A stretch of 17,995 nucleotides of DNA. Source: Escherichia coli (lineage in GTDB: Bacteria; Pseudomonadota; Gammaproteobacteria; Enterobacterales; Enterobacteriaceae). Position 1 is the stretch's first letter. Every line of letters starts with the position of its first letter. Location: the NCBI RefSeq assembly GCF_003334335.1, contig NZ_QOWQ01000057.1; one strand, 5' to 3'. Shown here one piece after another: positions 161 to 15,200 of this stretch. Made by a program: the position numbers and the translations under genes. Under the pieces are notes generated by a model. That model was not told the origin of the DNA. It was given only the letters and a program-made list of their open reading frames with translations, and did no database searches.

Positions 161-3007
161 TCAGAAGGTCACATTCAGCGTGGCCTGACCGTTATAGCCT
201 TCAGCGCTGTTGCCGCTGACACTGTGGGCATAACCGGCCTGAACGCCCAGGGTGATATTTTCCCGGACACGGGCTTCCAGTCCGGCCTGCAGGTCCAGTG
301 ACGTGCCATTCCGGGACGGTGAGAACGTCATGTTACTGCCGGCTGCGGCTGTACCCATGCTCATGTCTCCCCGGGAGCTGAAGGTGCGGATAACAGAAGG
401 CTGTACCCACCAGTTCACAGGCAGTTCACTCACACCGTGTTTTGTACTGTCGCGCAGGGTGTCACGGGATGAGGTGCCTTCACCAAAGGTCATATCGTTG
501 TGGCTGCCCAGACGGAAACCGGCACGCACATGTTGTGTACTGCCATGCCCGAACTTCACATAACCGGCGTTATCCTGGCCGTCATCCAGGGAGAGCCCCT
601 GCCAGGTGTACTGCAGTTGTGGCTCCAGCATCAGGTTGTCAGTGATACTGAAGGGCAGACCGGTTTCCAGTGAGCCCAGCCAGCCCCAGCCCCGGGCGCG
701 GAAGTCGTTATTGTCCGATGACGCTTTCATGCTGTGGCGGGTTCCCTGTGCCACAATGTCAGCCCACAGGCCGGAGGACGTGTGTGTCAGATTCAGGTAT
801 CCGCCCAGGCTGCCGGCATCATCCCGGACCGTGCCGGCGCGGGAACCGTCATCATCCTTAACATCAACGGAAGAATGGCCTGCAGCACCATACACCCCTG
901 TCGTCAGAGACATACCGGCAACCTCTGTTCTCAGCAGGTCACCCTCCAGACGGACGAAGCCATAGCTGCCGCTGCTTTCCGGCGTGGCTCCACGGGCAAT
1001 ACCGCCGTTGTTATCGTGACCGAGATGACCGCCCTGAATGCTGAGACGGACGCTGTTATTTTCACCGTTTACACCGGTCTGATGGCTGCGGGAGCCTGCC
1101 AGAATCCGGTCATAGTCCATTGCCTGTGTCAGCATGGATGTATACAGGGGGACTTCAGCACGATAAGCATTTTCACTGCGCAGGTACCAGTCTTCATCGC
1201 TGTCACGGTTCAGGGTGTAGTTAAAGGCGCCGGCCTGAAGCGGGCGACTCAGGGCAAACGCACCTTCTTCTGTGGTGGCGCCATTCTGTGCATCCACAAC
1301 CCGGATACCCTGTCCGGAGGTTGCCACCCCGAGGTTACTGTTTCCGACATTTGTAAACGCAAGCCAGGTTTTGCCGGTTGCCTGACCACCATTAATCACC
1401 AGCTGGTCAGAGGTATTGCTGCCATCAAGGCGAACACGCATATTGATGGTGCCACCCTGACCGGTGAGGTTACTGGTTGTCAGTTTATGGAACGTTACCG
1501 GGGCGTTGCCTTTTGCAACAGCACGGCTCAGTACGGCGTCCGGTGTTGTCTGATTATCAAAGTAAATCTCCCCTGCGTTAACAATATCGCCGGTACTGAC
1601 CACATCACCATTCAGTACCATGCTGGCGCCTTTACTGAGCTGTGTTCTGCCACTCAGACTTCCCCCGGCAGCCAGCATCAGTGTTCCACGATGTCCGACA
1701 GTGGTGTTGCTGGCCTGTCCCCCGGCATTAACCGTAAAGCTGCCGCCATTTTCCAGCAGCAGGCCGCTGGCCTGACCGGATATGCCATCAATACTGAACT
1801 TACCGCTGGCATTGGTCCCCTCAACAGTGGCACCACTGTCTGCAATCAGGGCACCACCGGATGTCATGGTGACACCTGTTGCCTTACCACCGGCAGACAC
1901 TGCCAGGGTACCGCCGTCATCCACCAGTGTTTTCCAGGCTGAATGTCCCTCCAGTACATCCAGGCGACCACCGGACTCCAGAACAACACCGTCAGCCTTA
2001 CCGTTTTCCACCGCGAAATTGCCCAGACGGTTGCTGCCGGTGACGGTTGCCGCCGTACTGGTGACCAGTGCGCCTCCCTGCTTCAGGGTGACATTCGTGG
2101 CTATACCACCGGCGTTCACCTGCAGTTTGCCTTTCTGGTTAACGATGGTGAAATCCGCCAGACCACCTTCCTTGACAATCTGCCAGCCGTCACTGTTCAC
2201 AACAGTGTCAGAGGCTGTACCGCCGTTGTGCACATACTGGTTACCGCCGTTCAGTGTGGTATCCAGCGCGTAGCCATGTACAGTCTGGTCGCCGCCGGCA
2301 TAAACCACAGTGGTATTTGCTGTTCCTTCAGCAGCCACAATCTGACGACCATTTTCATTGATAGTGGTACGTACGGCATTTCCGCGAACAAACTGCCCGG
2401 TATCACCATTTTCTGCATCCGGTCCCCCTTCCGCGCCGGTATTCACAACCGTGTCGGTTGCCATTGCGCCGGATTTGACGGCCTGCCAGCCCTTCTCATT
2501 AATGACGGTACCCGTTGCAATCCCGCCTTCATGTACCCACTGCTCACCGCCGTTCAGAGTGGTGTTCACTGCCTGCCCCTGAAGGCTCTGTCCGCCTCCG
2601 GCACTGATAACCGTGTCTGAAACGCTTCCTCCGGCATTCACTCTCTGAAGACCACCACCGGTGACAGTAGTGTTGTTGGCGATACCGCCATTTTGTATCC
2701 ATTGCCCGCCGGTATTGGCCTCGTTATCCGGCCCATACTCCAGACCGGTACTGATGGTCATTCCGTTGGCCGTACCGAGAACAATCTGGTTGTCATGATT
2801 TGTCAGTGTTCCGCCGTTCACGGTTTCTCCCGCCTGTACAACCGTGTCAGCAGCCAGTGCCGGGACTGATGTGACAGCAGCAAGAGACAGCACAACCGCC
2901 ACACCGGCGCGTTTTCCCCGTGAGCGGGCCAGTTCGGAAGCCACCACCAGGGTGCCCGTAATGTGATTCCATACCAGCCTGTAGCTGGTGTTCAGATGTC
3001 GTTTCAT
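161..3007 (-). CDS. flu: Antigen 43 self-associating autotransporter adhesin (AIDA-I type), 948 aa
   Basis: ORF 161..3082 trimmed to the ATG at 3005-3007. The N-terminus MKRHLNTSYRLVWNHITGTLVVASELARSRGKRAG...VPALA/ADTVV is an extended autotransporter signal peptide. The passenger consists of roughly 19-aa G/T/N/V-rich beta-helix repeats (GGxQxVxxGGxAxxTxVNxxG type). The C-terminal beta-barrel ends ...GQATLNVTF with a terminal aromatic residue. The sequence is recognisably Ag43. Confidence 0.97.
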   Translation of the reverse strand: MKRHLNTSYRLVWNHITGTLVVASELARSRGKRAGVAVVLSLAAVTSVPALAADTVVQAGETVNGGTLTNHDNQIVLGTANGMTISTGLEYGPDNEANTGGQWIQNGGIANNTTVTGGGLQRVNAGGSVSDTVISAGGGQSLQGQAVNTTLNGGEQWVHEGGIATGTVINEKGWQAVKSGAMATDTVVNTGAEGGPDAENGDTGQFVRGNAVRTTINENGRQIVAAEGTANTTVVYAGGDQTVHGYALDTTLNGGNQYVHNGGTASDTVVNSDGWQIVKEGGLADFTIVNQKGKLQVNAGGIATNVTLKQGGALVTSTAATVTGSNRLGNFAVENGKADGVVLESGGRLDVLEGHSAWKTLVDDGGTLAVSAGGKATGVTMTSGGALIADSGATVEGTNASGKFSIDGISGQASGLLLENGGSFTVNAGGQASNTTVGHRGTLMLAAGGSLSGRTQLSKGASMVLNGDVVSTGDIVNAGEIYFDNQTTPDAVLSRAVAKGNAPVTFHKLTTSNLTGQGGTINMRVRLDGSNTSDQLVINGGQATGKTWLAFTNVGNSNLGVATSGQGIRVVDAQNGATTEEGAFALSRPLQAGAFNYTLNRDSDEDWYLRSENAYRAEVPLYTSMLTQAMDYDRILAGSRSHQTGVNGENNSVRLSIQGGHLGHDNNGGIARGATPESSGSYGFVRLEGDLLRTEVAGMSLTTGVYGAAGHSSVDVKDDDGSRAGTVRDDAGSLGGYLNLTHTSSGLWADIVAQGTRHSMKASSDNNDFRARGWGWLGSLETGLPFSITDNLMLEPQLQYTWQGLSLDDGQDNAGYVKFGHGSTQHVRAGFRLGSHNDMTFGEGTSSRDTLRDSTKHGVSELPVNWWVQPSVIRTFSSRGDMSMGTAAAGSNMTFSPSRNGTSLDLQAGLEARVRENITLGVQAGYAHSVSGNSAEGYNGQATLNVTF

Positions 3008-3220
3008 CAGCTTTTCCTTACAGAGGGTGAATAAAAAAGCCGGTACCCACAAATGTGGATACCGGCAGGTACAAAACAGCATGCTCAGATAAAGTGGTTT
3101 TTCCCGGACATAAATGCTTCCCCTCTCTCATCCGCCAGAGAAGTATCAGTCCGTTGTGTGCAATTCCGTTCTGCATGATGAAGAGATTCAGCTGCCTTTT
3201 CGCAGACCATTAACCACTAT

Positions 3221-3379: not shown

Positions 3380-4252
3380 TCAGAAGAAAATCCAGTTCCA
3401 TACCGCGCGGGCAACAGAGACCACCGTGTCACGGACGGCACGCAGAACTGTGCGTGCAACAGAGGCAACACAGACGCTCTCCACCGTGTCAAATATCCGG
3501 TCCACCGCACCGGTAAACTGTTCACGGGCCTGCCCCCGGACAGATTCCGTGCACAGCTCGTCCTGCAGGCGGGTCATCAGGGGACTGGCGGCATGGTCGG
3601 GAAGCGCTGTCATGAGCGCACTGACCAGCGTATCCAGTTCCCAGCCGGTGCGGGCCGATACGGCAACAACCGGATGTACGGGCCGGAACAGCCGGAATAC
3701 CGCATCTGTTTTTTCGCGAATGTTCTGTTCCTGTGCGGGAGAAGGCTGAATACCTGCCATATCCCATTCATGGCAGGGCTCTGTTTTGTCGGCCTGCGTC
3801 ACCACAAACAGCACCTGCTGATGTCCCCGGTGCAGTATGTGTCGCCAGAAATACTCATCCACAGACAGGGCACGGTCATCGGCTTTAATCAGCCACAGTA
3901 CCAAGTCCAGTTCAGGCAGAATGTCACGGTACAGGGCTTCATACTCTGCATCCCTGTCCCGGCTCTCGCCCACCCCGGGCAGGTCAGTGATAACCATGCT
4001 GTGACCGTGGCCACTCAGACGGAAGCGCCGCACTTCCCGGGTGCCGGCGTGAACATCACTGACCGGGGTGACCTCCCCCTGAAACAGTGCATTACAGAGT
4101 GAGGATTTACCGGCCCCGCTTTTACCCATAATGCCAATCACGGGTTCGTGACTGGTGAGTTTGCGCAGATGTTCCAGGATGTGACGGGAAAGTGAGTAAG
4201 GCAGGGAGGAGAGCGGTTTTTCAATTGCCTCAATGGCATCAGACGGATTCAT
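3380..4252 (-). CDS. yeeP: YeeP/YkfA/YfjP-family P-loop GTPase (50S ribosome-binding GTPase fold), 290 aa, apparently intact
   Basis: The track ORF 3380..4291 begins at a GTG. I trimmed it to the ATG at 4250-4252 (MNPSDAIEAIEKPL...). It has Walker A GKSGAGKSSLCNALF, a G3-like DLPGVGE and a G4-like TQADK. It lies directly upstream of flu, as yeeP does in CP4-44. Confidence 0.9.
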   Translation of the reverse strand: MNPSDAIEAIEKPLSSLPYSLSRHILEHLRKLTSHEPVIGIMGKSGAGKSSLCNALFQGEVTPVSDVHAGTREVRRFRLSGHGHSMVITDLPGVGESRDRDAEYEALYRDILPELDLVLWLIKADDRALSVDEYFWRHILHRGHQQVLFVVTQADKTEPCHEWDMAGIQPSPAQEQNIREKTDAVFRLFRPVHPVVAVSARTGWELDTLVSALMTALPDHAASPLMTRLQDELCTESVRGQAREQFTGAVDRIFDTVESVCVASVARTVLRAVRDTVVSVARAVWNWIFF

Positions 4253-4405
4253 ACATGTATTCCCGGTGAAAAAAGACAAAACCCCGCGCACCGGAAAAGT
4301 GGCGGGGGACTCACGGAGATAATATCTGCCTAAAATTATTTGGAATGCAGGTATATGCAGCTAATTTGTATCGGCTCATTAGTACAGAACTAAACCTCAT
4401 CTGAC

Positions 4406-4431
4406 AGTCCGCTCTGTGCCAAGAGCGGACT
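4406..4431. terminator. Stem-loop downstream of the GIY-YIG gene (possible terminator)
   Basis: Perfect 10-bp inverted repeat agtccgctct (4406-4415) / agagcggact (4422-4431) with the 6-nt loop gtgcca, 37 nt beyond the stop of the 4468..5412 gene. TTTG follows on the plus strand only, and the minus-strand side has no U-run. Confidence 0.35.
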
Positions 4432-4467
4432 TTGCAAAATGGGGGTTATTTCAATCAAAACGTAACG

Positions 4468-5412
4468 TCACAACCAGCCGACGCTCTCTCGCCATTTATA
4501 ATTAGTAACTTTATCATTTTCGCTTATTTTTTTAGATATAGAGCGCGGCTCTCTTCCTAGATACTCAGATATTTCTATCGGGGACAAATCAAAATCGACA
4601 AGCATGACTCTAAGTTTTTCCATTTCCTTTAAAGTCCAAGGCTTGCCATAATTTTCATAAAGAGATACCTTATGCTCCCTGATAGTTCGCTTTCTCTGAG
4701 TTTCACTTTCCCTCTGAAAAATCTCGCTTTTAAATTGTGAACGGAACTCTTTACAGAAGTTGTTATCAGTTTTTTTGTTATATAGATTGCTAAAAATAAG
4801 CTGGGATGCCGGGTCTAAATCAGGTGTGTTAATAATGAAAACTTTGACCTTTTCCATATAGGGATATTCAATTTTACCCAATATGCTTAATTGCTTTATA
4901 TTAAAAAAACCTCTCAAATCAAAAGATTTAATGAGCTTTGATTGGATTACACTTTCAATCCTGCTTGCATTTGAATAACAGTACTTTGCCATTGGAAGGG
5001 CCCATACTACCAGTTGAGGAATATATTTTTCTAATGCAATGCTCTGCCAATCAGTATCAAAGGTTTGGCTTTTTGCTAGCATGTTTTTCGGCAAATCAGA
5101 ATACATTGTGGTAGATGCCCATATCTTATAATCATTCGCCAAGGCTTGATAGTATTTTGTGTGGTTATGAATTTTATAAGCTGACATGAAGCGATAAACG
5201 TCTTCGTCGTGACCAGCGTCGTAAATTGTTCGATTTCCTCTAAGATAACCGTCGTAATGTTCGGTTATCCTTCTACCTACATTACAACTTACCCCAACGT
5301 AAACCACACGACTGAAAAGTCCTTTATGGACAATAAGATAAACTCCGCTACAGCCAGATTTCCTGGCCTCTGATAGAGAACCTAAAAATCTCCATTCCAT
5401 AATTAAATCCAT
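4468..5412 (-). CDS. Orphan AT-rich gene: divergent GIY-YIG nuclease-like N-terminal domain plus C-terminal Myb/SANT-like HTH tail, 314 aa
   Basis: This is the only long ORF in a visibly AT-rich block. GIY-YIG-like motifs are SGVYLIV (GIY), VVYVGVS (YIG), GRRITEH (conserved Arg/Glu region) and a later RIESVIQ (candidate catalytic Glu). The C-terminal segment GKPWTLKEMEKLRVMLVDFDLSPIEISEYLGREPRSISKKI resembles a Myb/SANT or HTH repeat. The domain calls are by eye only. Confidence 0.75.
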   Translation of the reverse strand: MDLIMEWRFLGSLSEARKSGCSGVYLIVHKGLFSRVVYVGVSCNVGRRITEHYDGYLRGNRTIYDAGHDEDVYRFMSAYKIHNHTKYYQALANDYKIWASTTMYSDLPKNMLAKSQTFDTDWQSIALEKYIPQLVVWALPMAKYCYSNASRIESVIQSKLIKSFDLRGFFNIKQLSILGKIEYPYMEKVKVFIINTPDLDPASQLIFSNLYNKKTDNNFCKEFRSQFKSEIFQRESETQRKRTIREHKVSLYENYGKPWTLKEMEKLRVMLVDFDLSPIEISEYLGREPRSISKKISENDKVTNYKWRESVGWL

Positions 5413-5874
5413 AATTATTGCTACTGTTTTTGTTTATCATTATTTTCGTGAAACTTCAACAATTTTATCCAAAAGCTAAGGGCAAAGACTTATATAATTA
5501 TACTTGTCATCGTTAGCGATTATATAGAGTAGTGGCGCTGACCTGCTCCCTGGTGATTCACACAGAATGCTGTTAGTAATGTCCGTTCCTCGCTCAAAGC
5601 AGACCATTCGCTCAGTTAACGCATCAGTGTCGTGCTAAAAGTAGACGTGGTTAACAACAATGTGAGTTAATCAACGGAGAGCAGGTCAACTCTAACCTGT
5701 ATCAAAAAAACAAATGTGTCACAAAGATGCCGCATGCCTTAATTTGAGTATAATTGAGACGGAAGTAGACGGTTTATGGCTAAATATTGTTGATATATAG
5801 CTATTTGAAGAGTTGTAGCGCAAGTGTATAGCCCAAACTAATAACGCTACGCCCCTTACCTTTGACGCCTCTTA

Positions 5875-6129
5875 TCAAAGAGCGGCGATGATGCACAGCC
5901 CGCACGAGGCAATATTCGCACAAGAATCAGGTTCAGAAATAACCTGATCTGGCATGGTGGGGAGAGTATCACTGAGCAGGCTTTCGGTAAAATGCGGCGG
6001 GATGAGGTCGGCGTGGGTTGCAGCAGTACAATGTCGCCCGCAGAGGGTAAGCCACAGCGCGGGATCCTCGGTTTCTATCAGGGATTCGACGAAGTGGGCG
6101 CAGTTGTCGACCAAGGCGGTGAAATCCAT
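5875..6129 (-). CDS. Hypothetical protein (84 aa from MDFTALVDNCAHFVESL...), function unknown, possibly not a real gene
   Basis: ORF 5875..6183 trimmed to the ATG at 6127-6129. GC content looks similar to the hsd block. No convincing Shine-Dalgarno sequence is present, and a TATAAT lies immediately upstream on the sense strand. I recognised no motif. Confidence 0.3.
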   Translation of the reverse strand: MDFTALVDNCAHFVESLIETEDPALWLTLCGRHCTAATHADLIPPHFTESLLSDTLPTMPDQVISEPDSCANIASCGLCIIAAL

Positions 6130-6360
6130 AGTGACATTATAAGGAAACGAACAATAGATCGAGTAAATCGCAGTCAGGGACAAGGATTGTAGTCATAGAG
6201 AAGTCTCCTGTAACGGTTTTCAGGAAGCTAATCCCGACGCCTGATTTTGCAGGCGCGGAAGGAGAAGATACTGCGGCCATTAATCCGCCACAAGGCATTT
6301 ACGTGCATAAATCGCGCAGTCAAATCCGACTCCCACTGTAGTTCTTGAACCTGATACCAC

Positions 6361-6689: not shown

Positions 6690-9128
6690 ATGGCTATCAA
6701 AAAAACCGAACTCTATTCTTCCCTGTGGGCAAGCTGCGACGAACTGCGTGGCGGGATGGACGCCAGCCAGTACAAAGACTATGTACTGACCCTGCTGTTT
6801 ATGAAGTACGTTTCCGATAAGTATAAAGGCGATCCTTACGGGATGATCGTGATACCCAAAGGAGCCAGCTTTGACGATATGGTTGCGCTGAAAAATGACA
6901 AAGAGATCGGCGACAAAATCAACAAAATCATCCACAAGCTGGCGGAAGAGAACGGCCTGAAGGGCGTCATCGACGAAGCCGACTTTAACGACGAAGATAA
7001 GCTCGGCAAAGGCAAGGAAATGATTGACCGCCTGAGCAAGCTTGTCGGTATCTTTGAAGGGTTAAATCTCTCCAGCAACCGGGCCGAAGGCGACGATCTG
7101 CTGGGCGATGCCTATGAATATCTGATGCGTCACTTCGCAACCGAATCCGGTAAGAGTAAAGGGCAGTTTTACACTCCAGCGGAGGTGTCACGTATTCTGG
7201 CGAAGGTGATTGGTATTACTCCCGATACTCCGCAAGATGCAACGGTTTATGACCCAACCTGTGGCTCTGGTTCGCTGCTGTTGAAAGTGAATGATGAAGC
7301 CCGGCGCGGACTGTCGATTTTCGGCCAGGAGATGGATAACGCTACCAGTGCGCTGGCGCGGATGAACATGATTCTGCATAACAATGCCACCGCGAAAATC
7401 TGGCAGGGCAATACGCTGAGCGATCCGCAGTGGAAAGAGGCGAACGGCAAACTGAAAGCCTTCGATTTTGCCGTGGCGAACCCGCCTTTTTCCAATAAAA
7501 ACTGGACCAACGGGCTGACGCCGAAAAAAGATCCGTTTGAACGCTTCGGCTGGGGTATTCCGCCGGAAAAAAACGGCGATTATGCTTTTTTGTTGCATAT
7601 CATTAAAAGCCTGAAAAGTACCGGCAAAGGCGCGGTGATCCTGCCCCACGGCGTACTGTTTCGCGGTAACGCCGAAGCGAATATCCGTGAAAATCTAATC
7701 AAGCAGGGCTATATCAAAGGCGTTATTGGTTTGCCAGCCAACCTGTTTTACGGCACCGGCATCCCGGCGTGCATCATTGTGATTGATAAAGAGCACGCCC
7801 ACAGCCGCAAAGGCATTTTTATGATCGACGCCAGCCGGGGCTTTATCAAAGATGGCAACAAGAACCGCCTGCGTAGCCGAGATATTCACCGCATTGTGGA
7901 CGTGTTCAACCATCAGCGAACGGTACCTGGCTACAGCCGGATGGTGCCCTCCAGCGAGATCGCCGGAAATGATTACAACCTGAATATTCCTCGCTATATC
8001 GAGAGCGGCGAGCCGGAAGATTTACACGATCTGACCGCGCACTTACAGGGCGGTATTCCGGCACGCGATGTGGATGCTTTGCAAGATTACTGGCGGGTAT
8101 TCCCTGCCCTGCGCAACGTGCTGTTTGCTGACGACCGTCCCGGTTACTGTCGGGCGCAGGTGAACGCGCAACAGGTGAAACCGACCATTCTGGCGCATCA
8201 GGAGTTTAAGGATTTTGCCACCCGCAGCCTGCTACCGTTTAAAGCGTGGGTGAAAGAGGCAAGTCTGGAAGAGATTCGCAAAGGTGATAAACCCAAAGCG
8301 CTAATCCACGATATCAGCGAAATGCTATTGGCGCAGTACGCCAACAGTGAGTTGCTGAACAAATACAGCGTGTACCAGATCCTGATGGATTACTGGACTG
8401 ATGTCATGCAAGACGATGTGTATGCGATTATGCAGGATGGCTGGCAAGCCGCCGCGCAAATCCGCGAGCTTCAGCCGGTGAAAGGCAAAGATGGCAAAAA
8501 CATCTGGAAAGAAACGCACGATTTCGAGTTTACCAAACGGCGCTACAAGGCCGATGTGCTGCCCCGTTCGCTGGTGGAAATTCGCTGTTTCCCGGAACTG
8601 CTGGATGCGCTGAACCGCGCGCAGGAGCGCAGTGAAGAAGCCAGTCGTCAGCTAGTGGAATTCATCGAGGAGCAGGCAGGTGAAGAGGATCTGCTGGCCG
8701 AGGCGAAGAACGATAAAGATAAGGTGACGCAAAAGCTGGTGAATGCCCGTCTAGCACAGTTAAAGAAAACCACTGCCGGCCCAGATGAGCTGGCAGTGCT
8801 GAACCGCTGCCTGGCGCTAATTAAGGCCGAAGCCAGTGCGAAAAAAGCGCTGAAAGCCGCACAAGAAGCGCTGGATCGGGCGGTGTTTAAACATTATCCC
8901 ACGCTGGATGAAGCAGCGATTAAAACGCTGGTAGTGCAGGATAAGTGGCTGGCAACGTTGCAGGCAGGGATCAAGGCGGAGATTGAGCGTATTACCCAGC
9001 AACTGGCGTCGCGCGTAAAGGAGCTGGAAGAGCGTTATGCTGAACCGTTGCTAGCGCTTGAAGCCTCCGTTGAGGCGTTGAGCGAGAAAGTGGCCGAGCA
9101 TTTGCGGGCGATGGGGCTGGAGTGGTGA
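6690..9128 (+). CDS. hsdM: Type I restriction-modification methyltransferase subunit HsdM, unusually long (812 aa)
   Basis: The N-terminus is HsdM_N-like (ELYSSLWASCDELRGGMDASQYKDYVLTLLFMKYVSD). The AdoMet motif is VYDPTCGSGSLLL (about residues 186-198) and the catalytic motif is ANPPF (about residues 263-267). The core ends near NLNIPRYIE (about residue 438). Roughly 365 further residues are rich in predicted coiled coil. Confidence 0.97.
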   Translation: MAIKKTELYSSLWASCDELRGGMDASQYKDYVLTLLFMKYVSDKYKGDPYGMIVIPKGASFDDMVALKNDKEIGDKINKIIHKLAEENGLKGVIDEADFNDEDKLGKGKEMIDRLSKLVGIFEGLNLSSNRAEGDDLLGDAYEYLMRHFATESGKSKGQFYTPAEVSRILAKVIGITPDTPQDATVYDPTCGSGSLLLKVNDEARRGLSIFGQEMDNATSALARMNMILHNNATAKIWQGNTLSDPQWKEANGKLKAFDFAVANPPFSNKNWTNGLTPKKDPFERFGWGIPPEKNGDYAFLLHIIKSLKSTGKGAVILPHGVLFRGNAEANIRENLIKQGYIKGVIGLPANLFYGTGIPACIIVIDKEHAHSRKGIFMIDASRGFIKDGNKNRLRSRDIHRIVDVFNHQRTVPGYSRMVPSSEIAGNDYNLNIPRYIESGEPEDLHDLTAHLQGGIPARDVDALQDYWRVFPALRNVLFADDRPGYCRAQVNAQQVKPTILAHQEFKDFATRSLLPFKAWVKEASLEEIRKGDKPKALIHDISEMLLAQYANSELLNKYSVYQILMDYWTDVMQDDVYAIMQDGWQAAAQIRELQPVKGKDGKNIWKETHDFEFTKRRYKADVLPRSLVEIRCFPELLDALNRAQERSEEASRQLVEFIEEQAGEEDLLAEAKNDKDKVTQKLVNARLAQLKKTTAGPDELAVLNRCLALIKAEASAKKALKAAQEALDRAVFKHYPTLDEAAIKTLVVQDKWLATLQAGIKAEIERITQQLASRVKELEERYAEPLLALEASVEALSEKVAEHLRAMGLEW

Positions 9129-10462
9129 TGGTGGATTTAATGGTGAATGAGCAACGGTCGAGTACGGCGGGGAAAGATGTGCCTGCGGGGTATAAACTGA
9201 CTGAGGTGGGCGTGATTCCTGAGGATTGGGATTGCGTACCATTTGGTAATCTGTTTAAAACAAACACAAAGAAAAAAAAAGTCAGCGATTATGAGCTAGT
9301 TTCATTTATTGGGATGCAGGATGTTAGTGAAGATGCACAATTAAAAAATAATACTCAACTTCCTTTTAAAGAAGTTAAAAGTGGTTTTACTTACTTTGAA
9401 AAAGGGGATGTTTTATTAGCTAAAATAACCCCTTGTTTTGAAAATGGAAAAGGATGTCATACCGCTGATTTACCTACTAATGTAGGTTTTGGGAGTACGG
9501 AATTTCATGTATTAAGGGAAAATGAAGACTCCGATTCTCGCTTCATCTATTTTTGGACAACTGATAAAAAATTCAGAGCATCACTGGAATCTGAAATGGT
9601 GGGAAGTGCGGGACACCGTCGTGTGCCGCTAGTTGCTATAGAAAAATATTTGATTCCATGTCCCCCAAATTTGCAAGAGCAAAGTGCTATTGCTGATTCA
9701 TTATCTGATATTAATAATTTTATTCTAGCTCTAGAAAAGCTTATCGTTAAAAAACAAGCCATTAAAACCGCTACTATGCAGCGACTACTGACTGGTAAAA
9801 CCCGTTTGCCACAGTTTGCGTTGCGCAAAGATGGCTCTGCTAAGGGATATAAAAAGAGCGAGTTGGGGGAGATTCCTGAAGATTGGAATTGTATTAATCT
9901 TGGTGAGCTAGGTAATTGCATTATTGGGTTAACTTACAAACCTGAAGATACATCTGATTATGGTACATTGGTATTACGCTCATCCAACATTCAAAATAAT
10001 CACTTAGCTTATGATGATAACGTCTTCGTCAGCATAGAACCACCTGAACGCACAATTGTGAAAGAAGGTGATATCTTGGTATGTGTAAGAAATGGCAGTC
10101 GCCAACTTATTGGCAAATGCGCATTAATTGACAAAAATGCGCAGGGCTCAGCATTCGGTGCATTTATGTCAGTATTCCGAACTGATATATATGGATTTAC
10201 ATTTCACCAATTCCAGTCTGATATTATTCAAAAGCAAATCGCTGAAGTTATGGGTGCCACTATCAATCAGATAACTAACAAAGATATGTTGGGCTTTAAA
10301 ATCCCATTACCTGAAAATACAGAAGAACAAGCCGCCATCGCCGCCATCCTCTCCGATATGGACAAGGAAATCCAGATCCTGCAACAGCGTCTGGACAAAA
10401 CCCGCCAGCTTAAGCAAGGGATGATGCAGGAACTGTTAACCGGGAAAATCCGCTTAATATAG
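9128..10462 (+). CDS. hsdS: Type I R-M specificity subunit HsdS with two target-recognition domains
   Basis: The ATG at 9128 overlaps the hsdM TGA as TGATG. The track ORF starts at the GTG at 9122. TRD entry motifs are duplicated (GVIPEDWDCVPFGNL and GEIPEDWNCINLGEL). Conserved helical spacers are also duplicated (QSAIADSLSDINNFILALEKLIVKKQAIKTATMQRLLTGKTRLP and QAAIAAILSDMDKEIQILQQRLDKTRQLKQGMMQELLTGKIRLI). Confidence 0.95.
   Translation: MVDLMVNEQRSSTAGKDVPAGYKLTEVGVIPEDWDCVPFGNLFKTNTKKKKVSDYELVSFIGMQDVSEDAQLKNNTQLPFKEVKSGFTYFEKGDVLLAKITPCFENGKGCHTADLPTNVGFGSTEFHVLRENEDSDSRFIYFWTTDKKFRASLESEMVGSAGHRRVPLVAIEKYLIPCPPNLQEQSAIADSLSDINNFILALEKLIVKKQAIKTATMQRLLTGKTRLPQFALRKDGSAKGYKKSELGEIPEDWNCINLGELGNCIIGLTYKPEDTSDYGTLVLRSSNIQNNHLAYDDNVFVSIEPPERTIVKEGDILVCVRNGSRQLIGKCALIDKNAQGSAFGAFMSVFRTDIYGFTFHQFQSDIIQKQIAEVMGATINQITNKDMLGFKIPLPENTEEQAAIAAILSDMDKEIQILQQRLDKTRQLKQGMMQELLTGKIRLI
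9272..9280 (+). repeat. A9 homopolymer inside hsdS TRD1 (encodes part of TKKKKV)
   Basis: The read gaaaaaaaaag gives nine consecutive A residues at 9272-9280, inside the hsdS coding frame. Confidence 0.9.
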
Positions 10463-10474
10463 AAGGGAAAGCAC

Positions 10475-11131
10475 ATGGCTTATGATTACAGCGCCAGCCT
10501 CAACCCGCAAAAAGCTCTGATCTGGCGTATCGTCCATCGGGACAATATCCCGTGGATTCTGGATAACGGGCTGCACTGCGGCAACAGTCTGGTGCAGGCG
10601 GAAAACTGGATCAATATCGGCAACCCGGAGCTGATCGGCAAGCGTGCCGGGCATCCGGTACCTGTCGGAACGGGCGGGACACTGCATGACTATGTGCCGT
10701 TTTATTTTACCCCCTTCTCGCCAATGCTGATGAACATCCACAGCGGGCGCGGCGGCATTAAGCAACGCCCCAATGAGGAGATCGTTATTCTGGTCAGCAA
10801 CTTGCGAAACGTGGCAGCACACGACGTACCCTTCGTGTTTACCGACAGCCATGCTTACTATAACTGGACCAACTACTACACCAGTCTGGATAGTCTGGAC
10901 CAGATCGACTGGCCCATTTTGCAGGCACGGGACTTTCGCCGCGATCCAGACGATCCGGCTAAATTTGAACGCTATCAGGCAGAGGCGCTAATCTGGCAAC
11001 ACTGCCCGATCTCTCTGCTGGATGGGATAATTTGTTACAGCGAAGAGGTCAGGTTACAATTAGAACAATGGCTGTTTCAGCGTAATCTAACAATGTCCGT
11101 TCACACACGGGCTGGATGGTACTTCTCATGA
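10475..11131 (+). CDS. darT: DarT (DUF4433) ssDNA thymidine ADP-ribosyltransferase toxin, 218 aa
   Basis: Motifs typical of DUF4433/DarT are [17 protein letters not shown] near the N-terminus, [13 protein letters not shown], and the putative catalytic Glu in RYQAEALIW. The gene is followed by a macrodomain gene with an ATGA overlap. An AAGGGA Shine-Dalgarno sequence lies upstream, and the start is 12 nt after the hsdS stop. Confidence 0.9.
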
Positions 11132-12195
11132 TCACATATACACAAGGCAATTTACTGGACGCACCGGTGGAAGCTCTGGTGAATACGGTTAATACCGTCG
11201 GTGTCATGGGGAAAGGCATCGCGTTGATGTTTAAAGAGCGCTTCCCCGAAAATATGAAAGTCTATGCCCTCGCCTGCAAACAAAAGCAGGTGATCACCGG
11301 CAAAATGTTCATTACCGAAACCGGGGAACTGATGGGACCGCGCTGGATTGTTAATTTTCCGACCAAACAGCACTGGCGCGCTGATTCCCGCATGGAGTGG
11401 ATTGAAGATGGCTTGCAGGACTTACGCCGCTTTTTGATTGAAGAGAACGTGCAGTCCATCGCCATTCCACCACTGGGCGCAGGCAACGGTGGTTTGAACT
11501 GGCCGGACGTTCGGGCGCAGATTGAATCTGCCCTTGGCGACCTTCAGGACGTTGATATCCTGATTTACCAACCGACTGAAAAATACCAGAACGTTGCCAA
11601 AAGCACTGGCGTAAAAAAGCTCACTCCCGCCAGAGCCGCCATCGCTGAACTGGTGCGTCGCTACTGGGTATTGGGGATGGAGTGCAGCCTACTGGAAATC
11701 CAGAAACTGGCCTGGCTGTTACAACGCGCCATTGAGCAGCATCAACAGGACGATATCCTCAAACTGCGGTTTGAAGCTCACTATTATGGCCCCTATGCGC
11801 CCAATCTGAACCATCTGCTTAATGCGCTGGACGGCACCTATCTTAAAGCCGAGAAACGCATCCCGGACAGCCAACCGCTGGATGTGATCTGGTTTAACGA
11901 TCAGAAAAAAGAACACGTTAATGCGTATCTGAACAACGAAGCCAGAGAGTGGCTACCTGCGCTGGAGCAGGTCAGCCAGTTAATTGACGGCTTTGAATCG
12001 CCGTTTGGTCTGGAGTTGCTGGCAACCGTAGACTGGTTGCTGAGCCGTGGCGAATGTCAACCAACGCTGGATTCCGTTAAGGAAGGGCTGCACCAGTGGC
12101 CTGCGGGCGAACGCTGGGCCAGCCGTAAGTTGAGGCTGTTTGATAATAATAATCTGCAATTTGCCATTAACCGCGTAATGGAGTTCCATTGCTGA
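11128..12195 (+). CDS. darG: DarG antitoxin: N-terminal macrodomain (ADP-ribosyl-DNA glycohydrolase) plus C-terminal DarT-binding-type domain, 355 aa
   Basis: The start [40 protein letters not shown] is a canonical macrodomain beginning. NFPTKQHWR and [13 protein letters not shown] are also macrodomain-like. The ATG at 11128 overlaps the darT TGA (ATGA). The track ORF starts 12 nt earlier, at 11116. Confidence 0.92.
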
Positions 12196-12213: not shown

Positions 12214-15200
12214 TTGAGTACCGTGGGCCAGCGCGAACGCGCCACACAGCAGCGTCTGATTCAGTTTTTTGTTGAAGATTTAGGTTACCGCCATCTGAGT
12301 CACCGCACCGGGTACACCGGGAACAGCAACATCGACACTAATATACTGAGCGCGTGGCTAAAACGGCGCGGCGTTAATGATACGTTGATCACCCGGGCGT
12401 TGCGGCAACTGGATTCCGCCGCCGCTCTGGGCGAAGGCAAAAAACTCTATTACGCCAATAAAGAGGTCTATCGCCTGCTGCGTTACGGCGTGAAAGACAA
12501 AGAAGGCGCAGGCGAGCAGAACCAAACCGTGTGGCTGATTGACTGGGCCAACCCACAAGCCAATGATTTCGCCATCGCCGATGAGGTGACGGTCAAAGGC
12601 GAGTACTGCAAGCGCCCGGATCTGGTGCTGTACGTTAACGGCATTGCGCTGGGCGTGATTGAACTTAAGCGTTCGTCAGTGCACGTCAGCGAAGGCATCC
12701 GGCAGAATCTCGATAATCAAAAGAAAACCTTTATCCGCGATTTCTTCACCACTATGCAGTTAGTGATGGCGGGCAACGATACGCAGGGCCTGCGCTACGG
12801 CACCATCGAAACCCCGGAAAAATACTATCTGGAGTGGAAAGAAGATAATCCAGGCGACTATACACATAAACTCGACTTTCATTTAAGTCGTCTGTGTAGC
12901 AAATCCAGGCTGTTGGATATCGTCCATAATTACATTGCCTTTGATGTCGGGGTGAAAAAACTCTGCCGCCATAATCAGTTCTTCGGCGTCGAGGCGGCTA
13001 AACAACATATTGCCCGTCGTGAAGGCGGTATTATCTGGCACACACAGGGATCGGGTAAAAGCCTGACGATGGTCTGGCTGGCGAAGTGGATCCGTGAAAA
13101 TGTGCCAAACTCCCGCGTGTTGATTGTGACTGACCGCACCGAACTGGATGAACAGATCGAAAGCGTGTTTATGGGCGTGAATGAAGATATTTATCGCACC
13201 TCCAGCGGCAACGATCTTATCGCAACGCTCAATCATCCTAACCCGTGGCTCATTTGCTCGCTGGTGCATAAATTTGGTCGTCGCAGCGAAGCTGAAGACA
13301 ATGCGGCTACCGACGCCTTTATCACCGAATTACAGCAGTCCCTGACGAAAACATTCCGCGCCAAAGGCGATCTGTTTGTTTTTGTGGACGAGTGCCACCG
13401 CACACAATCCGGCAAGTTGCATAACGCCATGACTGCCATTCTGCCGGACGCCCTGTTTATCGGTTTTACCGGCACACCGCTGATGAAGAAAGATAAGAAG
13501 AAGTCGGTTGAGGTGTTCGGCCCTTATATCCATACCTATAAATTTGATGAAGCGGTGGCCGACGGTGTGGTGCTGGATCTGCGCTACGAGGCACGCGATA
13601 TTGACCAGTATCTGACATCAGAGAAAAAGGTCGATGACTGGTTTGAAGCCAAGACTCGCGGTTTGTCGAATTTAGCCAGGACCCAGCTTAAGCAAAAGTG
13701 GGGATCAATGCAGAAGCTGCTCTCCAGCAAGTCGCGGCTGGAGCAGATCGTTAACGACATTTTGCTGGATATGGATACCCGTCCACGCCTGATGGACGGG
13801 CGCGGCAACGCCATGCTGGTATGCAGCAGTATCTATCAAGCCTGCAAGGTTTACGAGATGTTCAGCCAGACCGAGCTGGCAGGAAAAGTAGCGATTGTGA
13901 CCAGCTATCGCCCCGATGCCGCCAGCATCAAAGGCGAAGAAACGGGCGAAGGGTTAACGGAGAAACTCTCTAAACACGCCACCTATCGTAAAATGTTGGC
14001 TGACTATTTTGAACAAAGTGAAGAGAAGGCCGCCGCACGCATTACCGAGTTCGAGCGGGAAGTGAAACAGCGTTTTATTGAAGAGCCGGGGCAAATGCGC
14101 CTGCTTATCGTGGTGGATAAGCTGCTGACTGGCTTTGACGCGCCGTCCGCCACCTATCTCTACATTGATAAAACCATGACCGACCATACGCTGTTTCAGG
14201 CGATTTGTCGGGTGAACCGGCTGGACGGTGAGGATAAAGAGTATGGCTATATTATCGATTATAAAGATCTGTTCCGTTCGCTGGATAAAGCGATTACCGA
14301 TTACACCACGGGCGCGTTTGATGATTACGATCGGGACGATGTGGCCGGGTTGCTGAAAGACAGGCTGGAGCAGGCGCAACTGGATCTCGACAGCGCGCTG
14401 GAGATGGTTCGCAGCTTATGTGAACCCGTCAAAACCCCGCGCAGCCTGCTGGACTATCAGCACTATTTTTGCGGTGAATCAGGAGAGAATCAGACTTCGT
14501 TAAACGAAAAAGAGGCGCTGCGCCTGACATTTTACCAGTGCGTCGCCCGTCTGCTACGCGCTTATGCCAGCATCGCCAATGAAATGCCGGAAGCAGGCTA
14601 CACTGCCGAAGAGGTAGAGAGCATTCGCGCCGAAGTCGCTGAATTCGAAAAACTGCGCTATGAGATTAAGCTGACCAGCGGCGATCTTCTGGATATGAAG
14701 CGCTTTGAACCCGCTATGCGTCATTTACTGGATATGTATGTTCGCGCCGATGGTAGCGAAGTGCTGATGGATTTTGAAGAGTTAAGTCTGATTGAACTGA
14801 TTGTCGAGAAAGGCTTGGCGGCGACCGTCGCCCTGCCGGATGATATCCGTAATAATCAGGATGCGATGGCGGAAACCATCGAAAACAACGTGCGCAAAAC
14901 CATCGTGGATGAAAACCCGGTTAACCCAAAATACTATGGACGCATGTCGCAGCTGCTGGATGAACTGATTACCCTTCGCCGACAAAATGCGCTCAATTAT
15001 CAGCAGTATCTGGAACGTATCCGCGATTTGTGTAAACAGGTCATCCGCCCGGAGCAAACCGCCGGAGCGTGCTACCCTGCCACCATGGATACACAAGCAA
15101 AGCGCGCCTTCTATGATAACTTCGGCCACGACGAGGTACTGGCGACCCGCATAGATACGACGATTCGCTATACCAAAAGGGCAGAGTGGATTGGCGATCG

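What the first reader, a model, noticed from the sequence alone, without database searches (positions are those of the whole stretch)
4292..5870. AT-rich islet with a single orphan GIY-YIG / HTH-like gene wedged between the Ag43 module and the hsd-DarTG operon
Composition drops sharply from the roughly balanced GC of both flanks to a clearly AT-rich stretch of about 1.6 kb. That stretch contains one 314-aa ORF (4468..5412, minus strand) and about 460 bp of ORF-free upstream DNA with several TATAAT-like boxes.

The protein has a recognisable but divergent GIY-YIG signature (GVY...YVG...R...E). It has a long insertion before the distal RIESVIQ glutamate, and a C-terminal Myb/SANT-like DNA-binding-type segment. 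A lone nuclease-like gene of foreign composition next to R-M and toxin-antitoxin defence genes fits the profile of a single-gene anti-phage or anti-plasmid effector. A homing-endonuclease-derived selfish gene is the alternative.

I recall that functional screens in E. coli recovered single-gene defence proteins with GIY-YIG domains. I cannot tell from the sequence alone whether this ORF is related to them.
Basis: partly seen in the sequence, partly recalled or inferred. Interest (0 to 1): 0.7.

Follow-up and report, generated by a model that had tools for sequence, protein, structure and literature searches.

The report
Mobile single-gene GIY-YIG nuclease cassette
The AT-rich islet is a 1.2-kb mobile cassette, bounded by two 24-bp palindromic sites, that carries one uncharacterised DNA-cutting enzyme which keeps turning up beside anti-phage genes, so it is a good but untested candidate for a new single-gene bacterial immunity protein.

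Summary
GC falls to 0.33-0.39, and one intact 314-aa ORF (4468-5412, minus strand) lies there.

An AlphaFold model (pLDDT 92) and family alignments show two domains:
- a divergent GIY-YIG nuclease domain, with Y25, Y38, R48, H52, E153 and N171 invariant and a ~75-aa insertion;
- a long helix followed by a Myb/SANT/GcrA-type HTH.

The family is small: 142 representatives among 1.84 billion proteins. It is under purifying selection (dN/dS about 0.1). It matches no PADLOC defence model, including PD-T4-3/CMoRE.

The islet is not one unit. The mobile part is exactly 4407-5604, bounded by two 24-bp palindromes. This segment recurs at >=99% identity in four E. coli contexts: this island, a Qin-like prophage beside PD-T7-1, an e14-like prophage end, and plasmids. 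It also occurs in other genera.

The same sites bracket unrelated cargo and form cassette arrays. A 200-aa tyrosine recombinase often lies between them. A Vibrio homologue is a true integron cassette. Other homologues sit beside AbiH, TIR, Wadjet-like or HEPN/RES genes.

My best reading is a stand-alone DNA-targeting defence or exclusion nuclease carried as exchangeable cargo. This is unproven. A homing-type selfish role is not excluded.

The parts
4407..5604 (-). The mobile cassette itself (1,198 bp, GC 0.371): site A, the ORF, its upstream region and site B.
   Evidence: This exact segment is shared at about 99.3% identity with four other places:
- a Qin-like prophage (L002);
- an e14-like prophage end (L183, match 4407-5604);
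- plasmid L003.

It is shared at 89-98% with Salmonella, Enterobacter, Citrobacter, Pantoea, Serratia and Silvania loci, whose homology ends at the same two sites.
4407..4430 (.). Site A: the 24-bp palindrome GTCCGCTCT-GTGCCA-AGAGCGGAC, 37 nt past the stop codon. It forms the 3' cassette boundary.
   Evidence: - Sites A and B are the only two matches in the window to GTCCGCT-N10-AGCGGAC with up to 2 mismatches. Expected by chance is 0.06, and 0 of 200 shuffles gave 2 matches.
- Backbone homology with O157 island L004 switches inside this site.
- The arm next to the gene stays constant with the cassette. The outer arm varies with the flank.
4468..5412 (-). ORF of 314 aa (alternative start ATG at 5400, giving 310 aa): GIY-YIG nuclease + helical linker + Myb/GcrA-like HTH.
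   Evidence: - ORF and translation.
- 72 homologue clusters, all about 310 aa.
- dN/dS 0.07-0.17.
- AF2 model with pLDDT 92.3.
4768..5412 (-). Codons 1-215: divergent GIY-YIG nuclease domain. The layout is beta1 G23-V-Y25, beta2 Y38-V-G40, alpha1 R48/H52, an insertion at about aa 60-133, beta3 at 134-140, a helix carrying E153, then N171.
   Evidence: - Invariant residues.
- Secondary structure.
- Family profile against I-TevI.
- About 210-aa stand-alone relatives cover this domain only.
4660..4761 (-). Codons 218-251: long alpha-helical linker.
   Evidence: DSSP on the model shows helices at 218-226 and 228-251.
4471..4647 (-). Codons 256-314: three-helix Myb/SANT/GcrA-N-type HTH. W259, E265, L267, R268, F274, R287, I296 and W307 are invariant.
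   Evidence: - Profile hits to multi-repeat proteins that Pfam calls GcrA, Myb_DNA-binding and HTH_38.
- Sequence matches to solved structures are not significant.
5497..5524 (-). Two exact TATAAT hexamers (5524-5519 and 5502-5497), 85-112 nt upstream of the ATG and inside the cassette. They are candidate -10 boxes for the cassette's own promoter.
   Evidence: Read directly from the sequence. The consensus scan does not support them as more than chance.
5581..5604 (.). Site B: a 24-bp imperfect palindrome. On the + strand it reads GTCCGTTCC-TCGCTC-AAAGCAGAC. In gene orientation it reads GTCTGCTTT-GAGCGA-GGAACGGAC. It forms the 5' cassette boundary.
   Evidence: - Significance in the window.
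- The arm next to the gene, GGAACGGAC, is identical in six closely related copies. The outer arm has six different sequences.
- O157 backbone homology resumes here.
5605..5646 (.). Backbone remnant of a junction: an 18-nt spacer-like stretch (5605-5622, 13/18 identical to the junction spacer consensus) followed by a decayed A-like site (5623-5646, 14/24).
   Evidence: Inferred by comparing the sequence with A-18 nt-B junctions in L002, L026 and L030. It scores below the PWM threshold.

Best explanation
**What it is.** Window 4407-5604 is a self-contained single-gene cassette. It was inserted by cassette exchange at two 24-bp palindromic sites, into a variable slot of a CP4-44-like island. The slot lies between the YeeP-type GTPase gene and the hsdMS-darTG-hsdR operon.

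**The protein.** Its product is a two-domain DNA endonuclease:
- a long helical tether;
- a C-terminal Myb/GcrA-type HTH that supplies DNA recognition.

This is the same domain logic as I-TevI-type enzymes.

**Most likely function.** It acts alone as a defence or exclusion nuclease. The HTH would recognise a sequence or DNA feature of incoming phage or plasmid DNA, and the GIY-YIG domain would nick or cut it. The gene is kept because it benefits the mobile elements and hosts that carry it.

**Shown here.**
- domain folds;
- conserved catalytic residues;
- purifying selection;
- exact cassette boundaries;
- repeated transfer as a lone gene;
- recurrent defence-gene neighbours.

**Inferred only.**
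- nuclease activity;
- the target;
- how self is told from non-self;
- the defence phenotype.
For: **Fold and residues.**
- Invariant residues.
- AF2 model.
- Links to GIY-YIG.
- The weak full-length structural matches in BFVD are phage intron-associated and Seg-type GIY-YIG endonucleases.

**Functional constraint.**
- dN/dS is 0.07-0.17.
- 287 of the 289 E. coli genomes that carry the gene have an intact copy, out of 5,426 genomes searched.

**Autonomy.**
- The gene moves alone with about 190 bp of its own upstream DNA.
- In Vibrio parahaemolyticus it is a single-gene integron cassette flanked by attC repeats.

**Neighbours in independent contexts.**

| Context | Defence-type neighbour |
|---|---|
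| This window | type I R-M + DarTG |
| Qin-like prophage | PD-T7-1, E 7e-157 |
| Aeromonas | AbiH |
| Undibacterium | HEPN-RES, HNH, Endonuclease_NS |
| Salmonella IME | ThsB-TIR and TIR |
| Yersinia | TIR_2 cassette |
| Thalassotalea | BrxR + Mks/Wadjet-like operon |
| Brenneria ICE | BrxC/D-like and TerB |
| e14-like prophage end | beside pinE |

From my own knowledge, E. coli K-12 e14 carries mcrA at the position beside pinE.

**Precedent.** Single-gene GIY-YIG defences exist: PD-T4-3/CMoRE (PMC12923530), and PD-lambda-1 and Uzume (bioRxiv 10.1101/2024.10.26.620412).
Against: - There are no experimental data.
- The ORF matches no PADLOC model except a marginal hit to PDC-S14 (E 0.0075) over the GIY motif.
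- Cargo of the A/B-bounded cassettes is mixed rather than defence-specific. Only 2 of 47 cargo ORFs hit PADLOC at 1e-5. The rest include GNAT, LysR, MFS and Ars genes.
- In Kosakonia the gene sits between housekeeping genes.
- A lone nuclease with no partner needs an unexplained way to spare host DNA.
- Guilt by association is weak for genes that simply ride on mobile elements.
Confidence: 0.5

Rival explanations
1. Selfish homing-type endonuclease. The protein cuts 'empty' A-18 nt-B junctions, or some other cognate site. Repair from a filled donor then copies the cassette in, using the 24-bp sites as short homology arms. The gene spreads without benefit to the host.
For: - The architecture is that of I-TevI/Seg-type homing enzymes.
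- There is a marginal hit to TIGR01453.
- The gene is flanked by palindromic sites, as ssn genes are flanked by their target repeats (PMC11893778).
- There has been very recent spread at 99% identity or more into four E. coli contexts.
- Prophages that carry it encode RecE-type exonucleases able to use short homologies (mechanism from my own knowledge).
Against: - The same A/B sites bound unrelated cassettes in genomes without the gene. The O157 island is one example. The junction is in 650 E. coli genomes against 289 for the gene. Of 80 viral contigs holding A sites, 1 has the gene.
- Homologues at 40-62% identity have no A/B sites or other shared flanking repeats. The Vibrio homologue uses attC.
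- Purifying selection is strong and decayed copies are few. Homing-endonuclease genes usually degenerate cyclically (my own knowledge).
- There is no match in 50,697 phage genomes.
Confidence: 0.2
2. Accessory factor of the cassette system or of DNA transactions. On this reading it is not a defence protein. It would be a nicking or structure-specific nuclease, or a DNA-binding regulator, that assists recombination, repair or replication of the carrying element.
For: - GIY-YIG domains serve repair and recombination in UvrC and Slx1 (my own knowledge; UvrC fold match).
- The C-terminal domain resembles the DNA-binding domain of the transcription regulator GcrA.
- The gene lies next to the 200-aa recombinase gene in strain CP55_Sichuan.
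Against: - Most arrays and most recombinase copies lack the gene.
- The gene also occurs outside any A/B array.
- The full catalytic set is invariant, which argues against a purely regulatory role.
Confidence: 0.1
3. Toxic nuclease of an abortive-infection or addiction module. Its antidote or regulator would be unrecognised: a small ORF or RNA in the 190-bp upstream region, or a host factor.
For: - It is a lone nuclease with no visible self-protection.
- The cassette carries 190 bp of conserved non-coding DNA upstream.
- It sits next to DarTG and CbtA/CbeA toxin-antitoxin genes in the island.
Against: - There is no ORF of at least 60 aa in the cassette apart from the gene.
- No Rfam family matches inside 4407-5604.
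- The Vibrio integron cassette has only about 10-140 nt around the gene.
Confidence: 0.1

Closest known systems
I-TevI / Seg-type GIY-YIG homing endonucleases of phages (TIGR01453 group I intron endonuclease)
   Same: [quoted passage not shown]
- The same catalytic residues are present (Tyr, Tyr, Arg, His, Glu, Asn).
- The weak full-length structural matches in BFVD are to these proteins.
   Different: - It scores 15.1 bits against a cut-off of 56.05.
- It has a ~75-aa insertion inside the catalytic domain and a ~45-aa extension after it.
- The C-terminal domain is Myb/GcrA-like.
- It is not in an intron or a phage genome: there is no hit in 50,697 phages.
- Its mobility is explained by sites shared with unrelated cassettes.
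PD-T4-3 / CMoRE (single-gene GIY-YIG type IV restriction enzyme of E. coli; PMC12923530)
   Same: - Both are single-gene modules on E. coli mobile elements.
[quoted passage not shown]
- Both use a native promoter.
   Different: - It does not match the PADLOC model.
- It lacks the GIYxY third tyrosine; here the motif is G-V-Y-L-I.
- The acidic lid loop was not identified.
- The C-terminal domain is a three-helix HTH, not the modified-cytosine pocket domain.
- phmmer against the PDB, which should hold the CMoRE entries, found nothing.
Uzume (UzuA), PD-lambda-1 and PADLOC candidate PDC-S14
   Same: - All are single-gene defence or candidate-defence proteins with a GIY-YIG-like domain.
- Distant N-domain relatives of this ORF weakly match PDC-S14 (12 of 58, best E 1.9e-7) and UzuA (10 of 58, best E 6e-6).
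   Different: The ORF itself reaches only E 0.0075 to PDC-S14, over aa 12-53, and does not match UzuA. The resemblance is confined to the GIY-YIG core.
Ssn family (SsnA of Neisseria; GIY-YIG ssDNA nucleases whose genes are flanked by their hairpin target repeats; PMC11893778)
   Same: Both are GIY-YIG genes bracketed by short palindromic repeats that also bracket other variable genes.
   Different: - Ssn proteins are about 94-aa single-domain proteins, and their repeats accompany the gene across the family.
- Here the protein is 314 aa with two domains.
- The repeats show no arm covariation.
- The repeats are absent from distant homologues.
- The repeats are far commoner than the gene.
Integron gene cassettes (attC / IntI) and Acinetobacter pdif modules (XerC/D sites)
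   Same: - Both are discrete one- to three-gene units, arranged in arrays and separated by ~60-nt imperfectly palindromic junctions.
- A tyrosine recombinase is associated with them.
- Cargo includes defence genes.
- A 61%-identical homologue is a genuine Vibrio integron cassette.
   Different: - In the window the boundaries are two 24-bp palindromes with different conserved 6-bp cores (TGGCAC and GAGCGA).
- Crossovers map inside each palindrome, not at a GTTRRRY box.
- Cassettes lie in either orientation and carry their own upstream DNA.
- The associated recombinase is a 200-aa protein with a catalytic domain only, not IntI or XerC/D.

Membership tests
GIY-YIG nuclease superfamily | Paired 'GIY' and 'YIG' tyrosine motifs on the first two beta strands | tested here: met
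   G23-V-Y25 (strand 23-30) and Y38-V-G40 (strand 34-42). They are invariant in 29 family members and at least 90% conserved in 58 wider relatives.
GIY-YIG nuclease superfamily | Catalytic Arg shortly after YIG, and a distal Glu (plus Asn) | tested here: met
   R48, H52, E153 and N171 are invariant in alignment A1. R48 and E153 are at least 90% conserved in A2. The equivalence to I-TevI R27, H31, E75 and N90 comes from my own knowledge.
GIY-YIG nuclease superfamily | Sequence-profile link to established members | tested here: met
   - Directly, the link is sub-threshold: PF01541 scores 15.8 bits against a gathering score of 22.6.
- Transitively it holds: 28 of 58 relatives hit PF01541 (best E 1.8e-7), and the A2 profile hits I-TevI 1mk0 at E 2.5e-4.
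GIY-YIG nuclease superfamily | Alpha/beta GIY-YIG fold | tested here: met
   [not shown]
GIY-YIG nuclease superfamily | Divalent-metal-dependent DNA cleavage | not testable with these tools
   This needs purified protein.
I-TevI-like homing endonucleases (TIGR01453) | Score above the curated family cut-off | tested here: not met
   15.1 bits against a cut-off of 56.05, matching only aa 22-63.
I-TevI-like homing endonucleases (TIGR01453) | Resides in an intron or intein, or free-standing between conserved genes of a phage genome | tested here: not met
   There is no tblastn match in 50,697 phage records. In the window it lies in a cassette bounded by sites that also bound unrelated genes.
I-TevI-like homing endonucleases (TIGR01453) | Catalytic domain, flexible linker and C-terminal DNA-binding domain | tested here: met
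   The model shows a nuclease domain at 1-215, helices at 218-251 and an HTH at 256-302.
PD-T4-3 / CMoRE | Match to the family HMM (PADLOC) | tested here: not met
   There is no PD-T4-3 hit at E up to 0.1.
PD-T4-3 / CMoRE | 'GIYxY-YIG' motif with a third tyrosine (PMC12923530) | tested here: not met
   The sequence is G23-V24-Y25-L26-I27. Position 27 is I, V or L across the family.
PD-T4-3 / CMoRE | C-terminal 5hmC/5ghmC-sensing domain | tested here: not met
   The C-terminal domain is a three-helix Myb/GcrA-like HTH. There is no sequence hit to any PDB chain.
Uzume / PDC-S14 (PADLOC) | Match to the family HMM | tested here: inconclusive
   - The ORF hits PDC-S14 at E 0.0075 over aa 12-53 only, and does not hit UzuA.
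- Among distant relatives, 12 of 58 hit PDC-S14 and 10 of 58 hit UzuA, with E down to 1.9e-7.
Ssn site-specific ssDNA nucleases | Small (<150 aa) single-domain protein of cd10448 | tested here: not met
   The protein is 314 aa with two domains. The cd10448 model was not available to test.
Ssn site-specific ssDNA nucleases | Flanking hairpin repeats that accompany the gene across the family | tested here: not met
   Homologues in Aeromonas, Undibacterium, Pseudomonas, Rugamonas, Pseudoalteromonas and Kosakonia have no A/B sites or shared flanking palindromes.
Integron gene cassette | attC site with R''/L''...L'/R' boxes (GTTRRRY) at the 3' end | tested here: not met
   - In the window the boundaries are sites A and B, and no GTTRRRY-type attC was seen. 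This was by inspection; no attC covariance model was available.
- The feature is met for the V. parahaemolyticus homologue, which has ~120-nt attC repeats ending in GCGTTAGGC on both sides.
Integron gene cassette | IntI-type integrase and attI at the head of the array | tested here: not met
   None of the ten main window ORFs has a Phage_integrase domain. The recombinase linked to A/B sites elsewhere is 200 aa with a catalytic domain only.

The most novel reading that the evidence does not exclude
The ORF may be one cargo of a site-specific cassette-exchange system that has not been described. The system would operate in mobile elements of Enterobacterales.

**The sites.** Cassettes of 0.6-3 kb are bounded by two kinds of 24-bp palindromic core site. 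Both kinds share 7-bp arms, GTCCGCT/AGCGGAC. They differ in a near-invariant 6-bp core: TGGCAC in A and GAGCGA in B. Neighbouring cassettes are joined by A-18 nt-B junctions.

**The candidate enzyme.** A highly conserved 200-aa tyrosine recombinase with a catalytic domain only sits in some junctions, as A-int-B.

**The proposed mechanism.** Two heterospecific sites would allow A x A plus B x B swaps. That would be a natural form of recombinase-mediated cassette exchange. It would move defence and other accessory genes among prophages, plasmids, ICEs and islands, in parallel with integrons. Within this system the GIY-YIG protein would be a new single-gene immunity nuclease.
Probability: 0.3. 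Interest if true: 0.85.

Novelty: new variant of a known kind. Interest (0 to 1): 0.62.

Why it matters
**The protein.** If it protects against phages or plasmids, it adds a compact nuclease family to the catalogue of single-gene defences. The protein is 310 aa and its architecture (GIY-YIG with an internal insertion, plus a GcrA/Myb-type HTH) is absent from current defence catalogues. Its targeting domain might be re-usable. About 5% of complete E. coli genomes carry the gene (289 of 5,426), nearly all at 99% identity or more. It would therefore matter for predicting phage host range.

**The cassette boundaries.** This window shows cleanly how a 'defence island' gains a gene. A 1,198-bp unit is swapped at two 24-bp sites, and in other strains the same sites hold other cargo. 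If the sites and the small tyrosine recombinase form a dedicated exchange system, that would explain how single defence genes hop between prophages, plasmids and islands in enterobacteria. It would also give a sequence signature for harvesting unknown cargo genes.

Tried and rejected
- **Direct family scans of the ORF.** Pfam, NCBIfam, PHROGs and PADLOC gave only sub-threshold GIY-motif hits. phmmer and a profile search of the PDB gave chance antibody hits. A C-terminal-domain profile against the PDB was not significant.
- **Fold searches.** Foldseek against the PDB and BFVD found nothing at E <= 0.001. The afdb50 library was unavailable.
- **Hairpin hypothesis for sites A and B.** I tested whether they are structure-selected ssDNA/RNA hairpins or terminators. 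It was rejected. Arm pairing is no higher than expected from independent columns, there is no T-run, and no Rfam family matches.
- **REP/BIME-like genome-wide repeat.** Rejected for E. coli, where junctions occur at 1-3 places in 650 genomes.
- **attC identity of the junction.** Rejected by inspection.
- **Shared recombinase or other conserved gene at the array ends.** All-against-all BLAST of eight loci found none within 10 kb. The only recurrent gene is the 200-aa integrase.
- **Defence enrichment of array cargo.** Not seen: 2 of 47 ORFs hit PADLOC.
- **Literature.** Searches for the accession numbers and for a description of the sites or recombinase found nothing.
- **Promoter scan.** No support beyond chance.
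Full report
**1. Observation**

GC in 400-nt windows is 0.51-0.61 to the left of about 4400. It drops to 0.335-0.393 between 4401 and 5800, and returns to 0.44-0.52 on the right.

The only ORF of at least 60 aa between 4292 and 5874 is 4468..5412 on the minus strand (314 aa). Many homologues begin at the equivalent of Met5, so the real start may be the ATG at 5400.

The 462 bp upstream hold no ORF. Two exact TATAAT hexamers lie at 5524-5519 and 5502-5497. The consensus promoter scan finds nothing on that strand, and the total is not above shuffles.

- an Ag43-type autotransporter (161-3082);
- a YeeP-like GTPase (3380-4291);
- hsdM (6690-9128), hsdS (9122-10462), darT (10475-11131), darG (11116-12195), hsdR (12214-15309);
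- a YgjP-type metallopeptidase (15309-16025).

In strain CFSAN061761 the same island lies at a tRNA-Ser gene. It carries the CP4-44-type yeeS/T/U-cbtA module.

**2. The protein**

Direct scans give only sub-threshold hits over aa 22-62:
- Pfam GIY-YIG: 15.8 bits against a gathering score of 22.6;
- TIGR01453: 15.1 bits against 56.05;
- PADLOC PDC-S14: E 0.0075.

There is no significant sequence hit in the PDB.

The family is small and uniform:
- There are 72 clusters among 5.8 billion proteins, all about 310 aa. They come from Enterobacterales, Aeromonas, Vibrio, Photobacterium, Pseudoalteromonas and Thalassotalea. At about 40% identity they also come from Undibacterium, Rugamonas and Pseudomonas oryzihabitans.
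- An exhaustive profile search of 1.84 billion representatives found only 142 proteins at E <= 0.001. Many are ~210-aa proteins that match the N-terminal domain alone. Others match only the last 60 residues, often several times in one protein.

In 29 full-length members, Y25, Y38-V-G40, R48, H52, E153 and N171 are invariant. In 58 wider N-domain relatives, G23, Y25, Y38, G40, R48 and E153 remain at least 90% conserved.

The link to GIY-YIG rests on three results:
- 28 of those 58 relatives hit Pfam GIY-YIG (best E 1.8e-7).
- Their profile hits the I-TevI catalytic domain 1mk0 at E 2.5e-4.

In the model, beta1, beta2 and alpha1 carry the motifs and R48/H52. An insertion of about 75 residues follows. 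Then come beta3 (134-140) and the helix with E153.

Foldseek gives no significant match. In BFVD the only weak full-length matches are phage intron-associated and Seg-type GIY-YIG endonucleases.

The overall design is catalytic domain, tether, HTH, which is that of I-TevI-type enzymes.

dN/dS against homologues with dS 0.19-1.8 is 0.07-0.17, so the gene is maintained by selection.

**3. The islet is a precisely bounded cassette**

The full 1,579 bp occur in 58 of 5,426 complete E. coli genomes. The gene occurs in 289 genomes, and 287 of those copies are at least 99% identical.

The segment shared with other contexts is window 4407-5604/5616:
- a Qin-like lambdoid prophage, where it lies next to a PD-T7-1 gene (L002);
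- a plasmid (L003);
- the end of an e14-like prophage beside pinE, where the match is exactly 4407-5604 (L183).

In Salmonella diarizonae, Enterobacter, Citrobacter, Pantoea, Serratia and Silvania, homology to the window (89-98%) ends at the same two points.

Those points are two 24-bp palindromes:
- site A: GTCCGCTCT-GTGCCA-AGAGCGGAC (4407-4430);
- site B: GTCTGCTTT-GAGCGA-GGAACGGAC in gene orientation (5581-5604).

They are the only two matches to GTCCGCT-N10-AGCGGAC in the window. The number expected by chance is 0.06, and 0 of 200 shuffles gave two.

Among near-identical copies, the arm next to the gene and the 6-bp core stay constant. The outer arm takes four different sequences at A and six at B, following the flank.

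Compared with an O157 island, the backbone is identical up to and into site A and resumes at site B. That island holds two other genes (172 and 459 aa) in the same slot.

So 4292-4406 and 5605-5870 are backbone, and the cassette GC is 0.371.

**4. The sites are a general cassette boundary**

A position-weight scan gave 0 hits in 189 kb of shuffled sequence. In real loci it finds A-18 nt-B junctions, with start-to-start spacing of 42 nt. They separate cassettes of 0.6-3 kb in arrays:
- Citrobacter youngae, with eight junctions in 10 kb;
- Pantoea, Salmonella, Enterobacter, Serratia and Yersinia.

The arms show no covariation: paired counts equal the expectation from independent columns. The cores TGGCAC and GAGCGA are nearly invariant. 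This fits protein-binding core sites better than selected hairpins.

Cargo is mixed. It includes PD-T7-1, a retron-type PRTase, an OLD-like TOPRIM protein and a colicin domain. It also includes GNAT, LysR, MFS, Ars and other accessory genes.

A 200-aa tyrosine recombinase with a catalytic domain only lies between an A and a B site in several loci:
- L002;
- L013 (frameshifted);
- L018;
- CFT073.

It abuts the GIY-YIG cassette in strain CP55_Sichuan.

Frequencies:
- The recombinase family is very large and 77-95% identical across Gammaproteobacteria.
- The recombinase gene is in 848 of 5,426 E. coli genomes.
- The junction is in 650 of 5,426 E. coli genomes, at 1-3 places each.
- A sites occur in at least 120 IMG/VR contigs. 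Of the 80 fetched, one has the recombinase gene and one has the GIY-YIG gene.

I found no description of these sites or of this recombinase's role in four literature searches. That is not proof of novelty.

**5. Contexts of more distant homologues**

| Organism | Context |
|---|---|
| V. parahaemolyticus (61% identity) | single-gene cassette of the chromosomal integron, ~120-nt attC repeats on both sides |
| Aeromonas | directly followed by an AbiH gene |
| Undibacterium | among HEPN-RES, HNH and Endonuclease_NS genes |
| Salmonella | integrative mobilisable element with ThsB-TIR and TIR genes |
| Yersinia | next to a TIR_2 cassette in an A/B array |
| Thalassotalea | 40 nt after a BrxR-headed Mks/Wadjet-like operon |
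| Brenneria | ICE with BrxC/D-like and TerB genes |
| Kosakonia | between housekeeping genes |

Distant homologues carry no A/B sites and no shared flanking palindromes. There is no match in 50,697 phage genomes, and only four plasmids match.

**6. Interpretation**

The gene is an autonomous unit. Two unrelated cassette systems (integron attC and A/B sites) and several kinds of element have picked it up on its own. It is conserved and intact, and it usually sits beside defence genes.

The most economical reading is a stand-alone endonuclease directed at DNA by its HTH, acting in defence or exclusion. It would be in the same functional class as PD-T4-3/CMoRE (PMC12923530), PD-lambda-1 and Uzume (bioRxiv 10.1101/2024.10.26.620412). 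It is not a member of those families.

The homing or selfish reading keeps some weight, because of the I-TevI-like design and the Ssn precedent of GIY-YIG genes flanked by their target repeats (PMC11893778). It is weakened by two results. The same sites bound unrelated cargo in genomes that lack the gene. Family members elsewhere lack the sites.

Nuclease activity, target, self-protection and phenotype are all inferred.

**7. Novelty and score**

The protein is an uncharacterised, architecturally distinct branch of a known superfamily, and a candidate for a known functional class. I rate it a new variant of a known kind.

The more unusual element is the A/B-site cassette slot with its small recombinase. 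I followed that up only in part. Interest is 0.62.

Noticed in passing
window 4407-4430 and 5581-5604; arrays in L026:6468-16869, L018:1228-12875, L013:6880-10983, L030:9809-15203, L059:5319-11404, L002:9001-14411: Two kinds of 24-bp palindromic site bound gene cassettes and form A-18 nt-B junctions in arrays. Type A has core TGGCAC and type B has core GAGCGA. They occur in prophages, plasmids, ICEs and islands of several enterobacterial genera. Crossovers map inside the sites, and the arms show no covariation. I found no published description.
   Followed up: partly
L002:12221-12823; L048 (CFT073):11125-11727; L013:9170-9770; L018:4415-5013; L006:736-1335: A 200-aa tyrosine recombinase with a catalytic domain only repeatedly lies between an A and a B site, with a 12-bp-stem inverted repeat just upstream of its start. 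It is 77-95% identical across Gammaproteobacteria, forms more than 8,000 clusters, and is in 848 of 5,426 E. coli genomes. It is the candidate enzyme for the cassette sites.
   Followed up: partly
window 6195-6269 (minus strand), with small ORF 5875-6183 (minus strand): There are sub-threshold Rfam matches to isrK (42.3 bits against 50) and to the a1/b1 target of C4 antisense RNA (40.9 bits against 46.7). They lie just upstream of a 102-aa ORF with no family hit. This may be a P1/P7-type antisense-controlled module in the island backbone.
   Followed up: no
L003:7734-9024 (plasmid NZ_AP022179.1): An IS110-family element sits exactly at site A. Homology to the cassette begins at window 4424, inside the palindrome. 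This suggests the site is a target for IS110-type insertion.
   Followed up: no
L049:7861-9070 (Vibrio parahaemolyticus): A 61%-identical homologue is a bona fide integron cassette, flanked by ~120-nt attC repeats in a chromosomal integron array of GNAT, LprI, glyoxalase and similar cassettes.
   Followed up: yes
L183:5811-6584 (E. coli 2009C-3133): In the e14-like prophage context the cassette lies next to a second, unrelated GIY-YIG gene, annotated as a LEM-3-like GIY-YIG domain protein, and next to pinE.
   Followed up: no
L004:3789-5823 (O157 644-PT8); L030:11121-12887: The alternative cargo of the same slot is a 172-aa protein (weak HEPN_AbiU2 hit, E 0.0037) plus a 459-aa protein with no family hit. 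An ORF pair of similar size (391 + 172 aa) occupies a cassette in Enterobacter; I did not test whether the two pairs are related. This may be another uncharacterised two-gene module.
   Followed up: no
window 9200-10400: A second AT-rich stretch (GC 0.35-0.41) coincides with hsdS, between GC-richer hsdM and darT. darT-darG are embedded between hsdS and hsdR of the type I operon.
   Followed up: no
NZ_CM128586.1 4580550-4583194 (hit H1); L018:9989-10945; proteins P0040/P0042 (Klebsiella): There are occasional inactivated copies of the gene: an IS903B insertion in one E. coli strain, a frameshift in a Pantoea MAG, and a split gene in Klebsiella. The other 287 E. coli copies are intact.
   Followed up: partly
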